Shown here piece after piece: positions 35,266-36,035 of a stretch of DNA of 39,374 bases. The position numbers and the translations under genes are program-made. Position 1 is the first letter of the stretch. Every line of letters starts with the position of its first letter. The stretch comes from a virus, in UHGV virus genome UHGV-0391889, one strand, 5' to 3'. The notes below the pieces were generated by a model that worked only from the letters and a program-made list of their open reading frames with translations, had not been told where the DNA came from and did not search any database.

Positions 35266-35610
35266 ATGAAACGATGGATATTTTCATTGCTGGCGTTAGT
35301 GTCTGTTGGTGTAAGTGCAAACACCATAACGATGCAATGCGGCAACTTTCGTATGGATGCGATCCCTGACTCATTATTTAAAATCAATGGCGAAACAGTA
35401 ACGTCCCAAAAAGTAAAAATGTTGGGTAAAGACGGTACAGGCATGCAGATCAAAATGGGGCTGATGCCTGCCAAAGATGGCCACAATTATGGGTTCGAGT
35501 ATATCCATCGACCGGGCACCGAAACGCGTTTCCTGAACGTCCAGCTTCTGCAGAACAGCATGGACGCTCCTAGAATCATCGGGTCTTTCCCATGCAAAAA
35601 AGTTAATTAA
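35266..35610 (+). CDS. Small secreted protein of unknown function (moron, paralog 1)
   Basis: Signal peptide MKRWIFSLLALVSVGVSA, about 96-aa mature domain bracketed by Cys (MQCGN...FPCKK); GAGAGG RBS. Confidence 0.55.
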   Translation: MKRWIFSLLALVSVGVSANTITMQCGNFRMDAIPDSLFKINGETVTSQKVKMLGKDGTGMQIKMGLMPAKDGHNYGFEYIHRPGTETRFLNVQLLQNSMDAPRIIGSFPCKKVN

Positions 35611-35622
35611 CAGGGGGGATTA

Positions 35623-35988
35623 ATGAAGCGCTTAGCTCTCTTATCTCTTGTTTTTATGTCGTATAGCGTGCTTGCAGCGCCTGTTTTGCGCTTTAAGTGC
35701 GGTGACGATAAATTTGTAATGTATGTGAATGCCTCAATGAGTAAACAGGCAGTCATAATGAACGATCAGCTAACAGAAAATTCAGCCACTGACCAGTATC
35801 CGTACGGTGACTTGGGGGATTCGGTGGTCATCACATTTGATGTATGGGGGGCGAATGGTGGGATGCATAACCACTACACAACTGTTTTCCCTAACGATTC
35901 AAAAACTATTAAGCAAATAGTTCAGATTTTAGACGCAGATGATCGCCCCCGTGGTGATGCCATCTATAAGACCTGCACGAAAATGTAG
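35623..35988 (+). CDS. Small secreted protein of unknown function (moron, paralog 2)
   Basis: Signal peptide MKRLALLSLVFMSYSVLA, about 103-aa mature domain bracketed by Cys (FKCGD...KTCTKM). Confidence 0.55.
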   Translation: MKRLALLSLVFMSYSVLAAPVLRFKCGDDKFVMYVNASMSKQAVIMNDQLTENSATDQYPYGDLGDSVVITFDVWGANGGMHNHYTTVFPNDSKTIKQIVQILDADDRPRGDAIYKTCTKM

Positions 35989-36012
35989 GAACCTTATCGC
36001 AGACACCATTTA

Positions 36013-36035
36013 ACCCGCCACTAGGCGGGTTTTTT
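36013..36035 (+). terminator. Rho-independent terminator after the secreted-protein pair
   Basis: CCCGCC-acta-GGCGGG followed by TTTTTTG, 25 nt after the stop. Confidence 0.6.

What the first reader, a model, noticed from the sequence alone, without database searches (positions are those of the whole stretch)
35266..36035. Two paralogous secreted small proteins with their own terminator inserted inside the baseplate gene cluster
Between the gpD-like hub gene and the gpV-like spike gene sit two tandem genes that have nothing to do with virion structure. Each encodes a cleavable signal peptide and a roughly 100-aa mature domain bracketed by one N-proximal and one C-proximal Cys (possible disulfide); neither has a lipobox. 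A strong intrinsic terminator follows. This is classic moron architecture. The products are probably periplasmic and could act in superinfection exclusion, envelope modification or host interaction. I could not place them in any family.
Basis: partly seen in the sequence, partly recalled or inferred. Interest (0 to 1): 0.65.

Follow-up and report, generated by a model that had tools for sequence, protein, structure and literature searches.

The report
Two exported proteins beside phage hub gene
Between the baseplate hub and spike genes of a SEN34-like E. coli prophage sit two real genes for small exported proteins of unknown function: the first is a conserved companion of the hub gene in this phage lineage, and the second is rare cargo in a slot that other relatives fill with phage-defence-like genes.

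Summary
ORF A (35266-35610, 114 aa), ORF B (35623-35988, 121 aa) and a strong terminator (36012-36037) lie between hub and spike. Both proteins have Sec-type signal peptides, no lipobox and a conserved Cys pair.

The interpretation needs three corrections.
1. A and B are not demonstrably paralogous. BLASTP, local profile comparison and an exhaustive HMM search find no link. They share only a predicted eight-stranded beta-barrel fold and a weak collinear signal.
2. They are not one inserted unit. A (phrog_3443) follows the hub in about 36 of 43 related loci and is translationally coupled to it. It is the only gene in the gap in several loci and absent from a few, including isolated phages. B (22 clusters) is rare cargo in a variable second slot. 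Elsewhere that slot holds membrane proteins, a membrane-anchored Mrr nuclease and T5orf172 proteins.
3. The terminator is a fixed backbone feature, conserved whatever the cargo. No promoter was detected.

No characterised homologue exists for either protein.

Best reading: these are non-structural periplasmic accessory proteins, probably acting at the envelope against incoming phage. That function is inferred, not shown. Interest is moderate.

The parts
35266..35610 (+). ORF A, 114 aa. It is an exported small protein (phrog_3443 family) with a predicted eight-stranded beta-barrel. The mature part is basic (pI 9.3).
35266..35319 (+). Signal peptide of A (MKRWIFSLLALVSVGVSA | NTIT); no lipobox.
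   Evidence: Read directly from the sequence. The n/h/c pattern is kept in homologues while the sequence varies. In some relatives the A domain is instead fused behind a lipoprotein signal (LLVSGC).
35338..35595 (+). Span between the two invariant cysteines of A: Cys25 (35338-35340) and Cys110 (35593-35595). They lie on the first and last predicted strands.
   Evidence: Invariant columns C25 and C110. Strand assignment. The disulfide itself is inferred.
35623..35988 (+). ORF B, 121 aa. It is an exported small protein of a rare uncharacterised family, with a predicted eight-stranded beta-barrel. The mature part is acidic (pI 5.1). Signal peptide: MKRLALLSLVFMSYSVLA | A.
36012..36037 (+). Intrinsic terminator (AACCCGCC-ACTA-GGCGGGTT + TTTTGC) lying 18 nt upstream of the spike start. 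It is a conserved right-hand border of the cargo slot.
   Evidence: Conserved in SEN34, 689R2, H10407, 22KM0354, Yersinia, Klebsiella and Hafnia relatives, with a compensatory change in Hafnia.
34193..35263 (+). Baseplate hub gene. Its stop codon lies 2 nt before the A start codon.
   Evidence: PF22759 E217_GP41, E 7.4e-5, below the curated cut-off. RefSeq relatives are named baseplate hub. The hub-stop to A-start distance is -8 to +4 nt in 38 of 41 loci.
36055..36807 (+). Membrane-puncturing spike gene (gpV-like N domain plus Apex motif).
   Evidence: PF18352 E 9.3e-45 and PF18946 E 1e-4.
31292..33301 (+). Tape-measure-like protein whose C-terminal part resembles an endolysin or lytic transglycosylase. 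It is context, and a candidate target for a periplasmic inhibitor.
   Evidence: PhageMin_Tail, weak. The C-terminal 233 aa match PDB 7q47_A 'Endolysin' (E 1.2e-13) and 9vvp_L Gp29 (E 2.1e-20). Homologues carry PF01464 SLT or are named lytic transglycosylase.

Best explanation
A and B are two separate, non-structural accessory genes of a SEN34-like (Brunovirus-type) lambdoid myovirus prophage. Each product is exported by the Sec pathway. In the periplasm each is predicted to fold into a small eight-stranded beta-barrel, stapled by a disulfide between the first and last strand.

A is a long-standing companion of the hub gene. It is translationally coupled to the hub, so it is made at least with the late tail operon.

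B occupies a second, highly variable cargo slot between A and a conserved terminator. That terminator shields the downstream baseplate genes from any transcription not modified by the Q antiterminator.

The most likely function is envelope-level interference with incoming phage, that is, superinfection exclusion after adsorption. The protein could bind a tail-tip component that enters the periplasm, such as the lysin-bearing tape-measure protein or the spike. T4 Spackle works this way against the gp5 lysozyme.

Shown here: the genes, the export signals, the conserved cysteines, the predicted fold, the linkage to the hub, the slot variability and the terminator conservation. Inferred: periplasmic location, the disulfide, expression in the lysogen and the exclusion function.
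For: Export and non-structural nature:
- Signal peptides and conserved Cys pairs.
- The A domain is fused behind lipoprotein signals in some relatives.
- No structural-protein family matches.
- A and B are absent from isolated phages with a homologous tail: Hafnia yong1, EKP1 and Providencia PSTCR3. Nothing lies between hub and spike in L050, L057 and L061.

Fold: both AF2 models are all-beta with eight strands. Both hit the same small up-and-down barrels.

A is hub-linked: it is present in about 36 of 43 loci and in 20 of 23 phage records. It is coupled to the hub stop codon. A relative sits next to the hub even in a marine phage.

The slot carries defence- or entry-related cargo:
- a transmembrane protein with an Mrr_cat nuclease domain;
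- transmembrane proteins with a T5orf172 domain (an architecture like SNIPE, PMC13190303);
- DUF2335 and other membrane proteins;
- many other secreted proteins or lipoproteins.

Terminator and antitermination: the terminator is conserved whatever the cargo. A Q antiterminator homologue is present in the window.

A candidate target exists: the tape-measure protein carries a peptidoglycan-hydrolase-like C-terminus.

A varies in residues 20-38 and 51-63 but is strongly conserved elsewhere. That pattern fits a specificity surface on a fixed scaffold.
Against: - No experiment and no characterised homologue support any function.
- No promoter was found that could drive expression in a lysogen.
- Coupling of A to the hub points to late lytic expression, when exclusion is less obviously useful.
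- PADLOC finds no defence family.
- The same hub variant occurs with A alleles only 61% identical (window versus SEN34). This argues against tight co-variation of A with the hub.
- Signal peptides were judged by rule, not with a trained predictor.
Confidence: 0.4

Rival explanations
1. Lytic-cycle helper. A (and perhaps B) is a late periplasmic protein that serves the phage's own cycle. It might tune lysis timing or peptidoglycan integrity. It might also stop progeny from wasting themselves on infected cells and debris, as T5 Llp does for FhuA.
For: The A start is coupled to the hub stop in 38 of 41 loci. No separate promoter was found. A is retained as the sole gene between hub and spike in several loci. 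It is conserved deeply alongside the hub.
Against: A complete lysis cassette (holin, endolysin region, spanin-like DUF2570) lies elsewhere in the window. A is missing from isolated relatives and from three loci with no cargo at all. Nothing links the fold to lysis proteins.
Confidence: 0.2
2. Inhibitor or immunity protein against cell-wall hydrolases that do not come from phage. In this reading A and B are PliC/MliC-like lysozyme inhibitors or orphan T6SS immunity-like proteins. They would protect the lysogen from animal lysozyme or from competitor bacteria.
Against: No Pfam MliC hit appears at E <= 0.1. Identity to these structures is 3-13%. Equally good or better matches are avidins, the Cap15 barrel and designed barrels. 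Both families are confined to one phage tail module, which is unexpected for a general host-fitness factor.
Confidence: 0.15
3. Small-ligand-binding barrel (avidin- or lipocalin-like) that scavenges or sequesters a periplasmic metabolite or metal as a host fitness factor.
Against: No avidin or lipocalin Pfam hit. Identity is 7-12%. The strict confinement to the hub neighbourhood of one tail module is not explained.
Confidence: 0.1
4. A is an unrecognised structural or assembly component of the baseplate.
For: A shows conserved position and translational coupling to the hub across most of the lineage.
Against: A carries a cleavable export signal and a conserved Cys pair, and lipoprotein-anchored versions exist. 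Together these place the domain outside the cytoplasm, where tails are not assembled. A is absent from isolated phages with homologous tails and from loci where the hub directly abuts the spike. No structural family matches.
Confidence: 0.03

Closest known systems
T4 Spackle (Sp), a periplasmic superinfection-exclusion protein that inhibits the tail lysozyme gp5
   Same: It is a small phage-encoded protein (about 100 aa) with a signal peptide that acts in the periplasm. The phage here also brings a cell-wall hydrolase domain on its tail, at the tape-measure C-terminus. This is the closest analogue for the proposed way of working.
   Different: Spackle is helical (from my own knowledge; not tested here), whereas A and B are predicted all-beta. 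There is no sequence relationship. Spackle is not encoded in the baseplate cluster. The function of A and B is untested.
Morons in lambdoid tail operons: HK97 gp15, lambda lom and bor, cor of phi80/N15
   Same: These are accessory, non-structural genes for envelope-located proteins embedded among tail genes of temperate phages. They are bounded by a terminator, and several block phage entry. The window is a lambdoid prophage with a Q homologue (PMC5261728 for SEN34).
   Different: Those proteins are inner- or outer-membrane proteins or lipoproteins of unrelated sequence. The classical moron has its own promoter, and none was detected here. A is coupled to the hub gene and is near-universal in its lineage rather than sporadic.
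PliC/MliC periplasmic lysozyme inhibitors (Pfam MliC)
   Different: There is no Pfam match and identity is 4-13%. The similarity is no better than to avidins or designed barrels.
phrog_3443 (PHROGs family of unknown function)
   Same: A matches it over its full length with E 7.9e-51. It is the same family as the genes that follow the hub in SEN34, vB_EcoM-689R2, Mulock and YP3.
   Different: The family has no described function, so membership names the protein but does not explain it. B belongs to no PHROG.
Defence hotspots of temperate phages (for example the P2 and P4 hotspots, PMC13586616) and the injection-stage defence SNIPE (PMC13190303)
   Same: The slot has a fixed position with conserved flanks and interchangeable cargo. 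Here the cargo includes a transmembrane-Mrr nuclease and transmembrane-T5orf172 proteins.
   Different: This hotspot lies inside the baseplate operon of a different phage group. A and B themselves match no known defence family.

Membership tests
phrog_3443 (for A) | Full-length match to the family profile | tested here: met
   E 7.9e-51, 171.6 bits, residues 1-114 against profile positions 1-114 of 115.
Sec-exported periplasmic protein (A and B) | N-terminal positive n-region, uncharged hydrophobic core of 10-15 residues, small residues at -3 and -1, and no lipobox Cys | tested here: met
   MKR+WIFSLLALVSVGV+SA|N and MKR+LALLSLVFMSYSV+LA|A. The pattern is kept in 120 A homologues and 12 B homologues. 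This was judged by rule and by my own script only; no trained predictor was available.
Sec-exported periplasmic protein (A and B) | Actual export and disulfide formation | not testable with these tools
   This needs PhoA or Bla fusions, fractionation and non-reducing gels.
Paralogous pair (A and B share ancestry) | Significant sequence or profile similarity of the mature domains | tested here: not met
   BLASTP E = 5. hhalign on mature parts gives E 0.11 and 0.04-0.11. The local score is not above column shuffles: 89 of 150 shuffles reach it. The A profile does not retrieve B among 1.84 billion proteins.
Paralogous pair (A and B share ancestry) | Same fold, same strand order and same Cys placement | tested here: inconclusive
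Moron (autonomous transcription unit inside a phage late operon) | Own promoter upstream | tested here: not met
   No + strand sigma-70-like site was found in 33000-38000. The best PWM score, 8.3, is below the shuffled median maximum of 9.2. The A start lies 2 nt after the hub stop.
Moron (autonomous transcription unit inside a phage late operon) | Intrinsic terminator downstream | tested here: met
   Terminator at 36012-36037. However, it is a conserved backbone element, not imported with the genes.
Moron (autonomous transcription unit inside a phage late operon) | Present in some but not other closely related phages; deviating base composition | tested here: met
   For B: it is found in 5 of 5426 complete E. 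coli genomes against about 70 that carry A, in none of 45 species-representative loci and in no phage record. For A this is only partly true, since it is present in about 36 of 43 loci. GC is 0.44-0.47 over A and B against 0.50-0.57 in most of the hub gene; the hub's last ~400 nt are already down at 0.48-0.49.
PliC/MliC lysozyme inhibitors | Match to Pfam MliC and its conserved inhibitory loops | tested here: not met
Avidin/streptavidin | Match to the avidin family profile | tested here: not met
Known virion or baseplate protein families | Sequence match to a structural family or to a solved virion component | tested here: not met
   Pfam, PHROGs and NCBIfam assign no structural family. PDB profile searches return nothing below E 0.09. 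BFVD returns nothing at E <= 0.001.
Known anti-phage defence systems (PADLOC) | Match to a PADLOC model | tested here: not met
   The only hit is a chance-level one for B (E 0.031, 10 bits).

The most novel reading that the evidence does not exclude
A is an immunity-like periplasmic inhibitor matched to the tail's own weapon, the peptidoglycan-hydrolase domain on the tape-measure protein or another tail-tip part that enters the periplasm. If so, this tail module carries an effector-immunity pair like a type VI secretion system and gives homotypic superinfection exclusion. That would explain why an exported protein gene has stayed glued to the hub gene from enterobacterial prophages to a marine phage. 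It would also explain why other secreted proteins replace A where it is missing. B would be a second, acidic barrel that widens or alters the specificity.
Probability: 0.15. Interest if true: 0.75.

Novelty: new variant of a known kind. Interest (0 to 1): 0.42.

Why it matters
Accessory genes that temperate phages carry inside their tail operons often decide which other phages can infect a lysogen. Here a whole lineage of enterobacterial myovirus prophages keeps an exported beta-barrel protein gene welded to its baseplate hub gene. The lineage occurs in E. coli including ETEC and EHEC strains, and in Salmonella, Klebsiella, Yersinia and Serratia. Next to that gene is a slot that cycles through membrane nucleases and other defence-like cargo.

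If A or B blocks phage entry in the periplasm, they would be new protein families for a step with few known inhibitors. They would also matter for phage therapy host-range prediction. If they do not, the locus still defines a clean, conserved-flank hotspot that can be mined for new entry-level defences.

Tried and rejected
- Sequence paralogy of A and B. I tested it with BLASTP, hhalign with and without signal peptides, a broadened A profile, column-shuffle and reversal controls, and an exhaustive HMM search. It is rejected as unproven. The first apparently good hhalign hit (E 1.5e-5) was an artefact of aligning the two signal peptides.
- Known families. Pfam, PHROGs, NCBIfam, PADLOC and PDB sequence searches gave nothing for B and only an unnamed PHROG for A.
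- Private promoter. Two scans found nothing above shuffles.
- Flanking repeats or an RNA family in the junction. None were found.
- Literature. I searched on SEN34, on accession numbers and locus tags, and on periplasmic exclusion and tape-measure proteins. Nothing was found on these proteins.
- Giant repeat proteins hit by the A profile (P0136, P0170, P0178). They were judged spurious sums of many weak stretches.

Full report
**What is in the sequence.** On the + strand, ORF A runs from 35266 to 35610 (114 aa) and ORF B from 35623 to 35988 (121 aa). Upstream lies the baseplate hub gene (34193-35263; weak PF22759 match). Downstream lies the spike gene (36055-36807; PF18352 E 9e-45 plus the Apex motif). 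The neighbours are a Dit-like protein, a Pam3-gp18-type plug, a sheath-initiator-like gene, Baseplate_J and DUF2612/Wedge1. The window is a lambdoid prophage with a myovirus tail of the Salmonella phage SEN34 (Brunovirus) type. It has a lambda-type integrase, a Q antiterminator homologue and an S-type holin. Its tail genes are 88-92% identical to SEN34 and to the E. coli phages vB_EcoM-689R2 and 606R2. SEN34 was described as a myovirus with lambda-like regulation (PMC5261728).

**Both ORFs are real genes.** A has 332 homologue clusters and B has 22, all in Enterobacterales. The exact sequences are on 284 and 275 public contigs. Their only names are 'putative secreted protein' and 'uncharacterized protein'.

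**Export signals and cysteines.** A begins MKRWIFSLLALVSVGVSA|NT and B begins MKRLALLSLVFMSYSVLA|AP. Each has a basic start, an uncharged hydrophobic core and small residues at -3 and -1. Neither has a lipobox.
- Across 120 A homologues the N-terminus drifts in sequence but keeps this character, and the two cysteines (C25, C110) are invariant.
- In B, C118 is invariant and C26 nearly so.
- In some E. coli and Serratia prophages the A domain is the C-terminal module of a 292-296 aa lipoprotein with an LLVSGC or FLSGC lipobox.
- The N-terminal domain of that lipoprotein recurs with a different C-terminal domain in another locus.

All of this places the A domain outside the cytoplasm. I had no trained signal-peptide predictor, so export is a rule-based inference.

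**Are they paralogues?** Not demonstrably.
- BLASTP gives E = 5.
- A profile-profile comparison first looked good (E 1.5e-5). It collapses to E 0.11 once the signal peptides are removed.
- It stays at E 0.04-0.11 with a broadened A profile.
- Against column-shuffled controls the local score is ordinary: 89 of 150 shuffles reach it.
- The global score is somewhat high: 10.0 against 3.2 +/- 2.4, with 1 of 150 shuffles reaching it and the reversed alignment scoring 2.2.
- An exhaustive search of 1.84 billion representative proteins with the A profile finds only 44 proteins, and none is from the B family.

- 5hal_A;
- the Cap15 barrel 7n34_A;
- avidins and streptavidin;
- DUF1842 (8t0b);
- PliC (4mir, 3oe3);
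- PhiA;
- the T6SS immunity protein BtaiB.

**They are not one inserted unit.** I collected 45 loci with a hub homologue from species-representative genomes. I added phage records and E. coli genomes and analysed the hub neighbourhood.
- The A domain follows the hub directly in about 36 of 43 usable loci. It is also present in 20 of the 23 phage records whose hub is at least 46% identical.
- In seven loci A is the only gene between hub and spike.
- In three loci nothing lies there (gap about 90 bp).
- Three isolated phages with a homologous tail lack A: Hafnia yong1, EKP1 and Providencia PSTCR3. A is therefore not needed to build the tail.
- The A start codon lies -8 to +4 nt from the hub stop in 38 of 41 loci. 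The most frequent arrangements are the overlaps -1 and -4, which indicates translational coupling.
- A divergent A relative from a marine metagenome sits on the other side of the hub, between plug and hub.

B behaves differently. It is in none of the 45 loci and in no phage record. It is in 5 of 5426 complete E. coli genomes, against about 70 that carry A. Wherever I looked it lies in the same tail module. In the window and in the Yersinia, E. coli, Serratia and Rosenbergiella loci it directly follows an A-family gene. The one exception is Serratia fonticola, where it follows an unrelated secreted protein in front of the hub.

**The second slot is a hotspot.** Between A and the spike, relatives carry very different cargo:
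- other secreted proteins and lipoproteins;
- multi-pass membrane proteins, including DUF2335;
- a transmembrane protein with an Mrr_cat nuclease domain;
- transmembrane proteins with a T5orf172 domain;
- a Clp-protease-like protein;
- a secreted OB-fold protein;
- cytoplasmic gene pairs of unknown function.

The transmembrane-plus-nuclease architecture recalls SNIPE, a membrane nuclease that cuts phage DNA during injection (PMC13190303). I did not verify homology.

**The terminator is part of the backbone.** The hairpin at 36012-36031 with its T-run is strong (dG -20.2, z -4.25). The same hairpin sits just before the spike ribosome-binding site in all eight compared relatives, whatever the cargo. 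Hafnia shows a compensatory stem change.

No sigma-70-like promoter stands out on the + strand.

With a Q homologue present, the simplest reading has two parts. Q-modified late transcription reads through the terminator. Any other transcription entering the cargo slot stops there. This is inference from how lambdoid late operons are known to work.

**How it most likely works.** These are two periplasmic beta-barrel accessory proteins, not virion parts. My preferred function is interference with incoming phage at the envelope. Four points favour it:
- the slot's other occupants look like entry-stage or membrane-level defences;
- the tail brings a peptidoglycan-hydrolase-like domain into the periplasm on its tape-measure protein, which offers a target of the kind T4 Spackle inhibits;
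- A has two variable patches on an otherwise very conserved scaffold;
- where A is missing, another secreted protein usually sits next to the hub.

Against it: nothing here shows function, the fold is generic, no lysogenic promoter was found, and the coupling of A to the hub suggests late expression. I put about 0.4 on this reading as a whole. The non-structural, exported part alone I would put at about 0.85. The rivals are a lytic-cycle helper, an inhibitor of non-phage wall hydrolases, a ligand-binding barrel and a structural role. They are listed with their tests.

**Novelty and verdict.** The kind of thing is well known: accessory envelope proteins and a cargo hotspot inside a temperate phage tail operon. 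The two protein families are uncharacterised, and I found nothing in the literature on them. The persistent welding of an exported protein gene to a baseplate hub gene is unusual enough to merit an experiment. Paralogy, the single-insert idea and the 'own terminator' do not hold. Interest is moderate (0.42).

Noticed in passing
window 36012-36037; L001, L002, L003, L010, L012, L016, L017 just upstream of their spike genes: An intrinsic terminator in the middle of the baseplate operon is conserved across E. coli, Salmonella, Yersinia, Klebsiella and Hafnia relatives, with a compensatory stem change in Hafnia. It implies that late transcription needs antitermination, or that the hairpin sets the dosage of downstream baseplate genes.
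   Followed up: partly
L033 about 5007-5830; L043 about 2830-4060; L066 5609-6799: Cargo in the hub-spike slot of relatives includes a transmembrane protein with an Mrr_cat restriction-endonuclease domain and transmembrane proteins with a T5orf172 (GIY-YIG-type) domain. The architecture resembles the injection-stage defence SNIPE. Homology was not verified.
   Followed up: partly
L008 4107-4997; L068 4113-4991; proteins P0157, P0175: The A beta-barrel also occurs as the C-terminal module of a 265-296 aa lipoprotein. The N-terminal domain of that lipoprotein is shared with a 379-aa lipoprotein (L034) that carries a different C-terminal domain. This suggests a modular anchor with swappable heads.
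   Followed up: partly
L004 4646-5378; L014 1963-2436; L064 371-709: In Serratia fonticola, Providencia phage PSTCR3 and a marine metagenome phage, the secreted-protein genes sit before the hub (between plug and hub) rather than after it. Both flanks of the hub gene therefore accept such cargo.
   Followed up: partly
window 32600-33298 (C-terminal third of the 31292-33301 ORF): The tape-measure-like protein ends in a domain that matches a solved endolysin (7q47_A, E 1e-13) and Gp29 of 9vvp (E 2e-20), although Pfam does not flag it in this copy. Relatives are annotated SLT or lytic transglycosylase.
   Followed up: partly
window 35623-35988 (protein residues 78-85 and 104-112): B has an invariant GGMHNHY stretch (two histidines) and a DADDRPRGD stretch that contains an RGD tripeptide. 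The RGD is lost in the most divergent members (P0211-P0213), so it is probably not essential.
   Followed up: no
L001 4164-4505 (SEN34 gene 20): The deposited SEN34 annotation starts this gene at an internal ATG (77 aa, 4272-4505). The full 113-aa ORF from a TTG start includes the signal peptide and the first conserved cysteine.
   Followed up: partly
L024 (Chryseobacterium sp. 18061), L013 (Elizabethkingia phage EKP1), L060 (Bacillus sp. AFS073361): Enterobacterial-type copies of this tail module (hub 46-98% identical) appear in records assigned to Bacteroidota or Bacillus hosts. Contamination or a wrong host assignment seems likely.
   Followed up: no
proteins P0136 (4267 aa), P0170 (1805 aa), P0178 (542 aa): Giant repeat proteins score against the A profile through many weak repeated stretches (positions 62-104). 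I judged these spurious, but the recurring match to the most conserved part of A was not examined further.
   Followed up: no
L023 and L029 slot 2; L004-L006 pre-hub: An unrelated 113-122 aa secreted protein recurs as cargo both after A and, in Serratia fonticola, in front of B. It is a second mobile secreted family in this neighbourhood. It looks helical from its sequence, but this was not tested.
   Followed up: no
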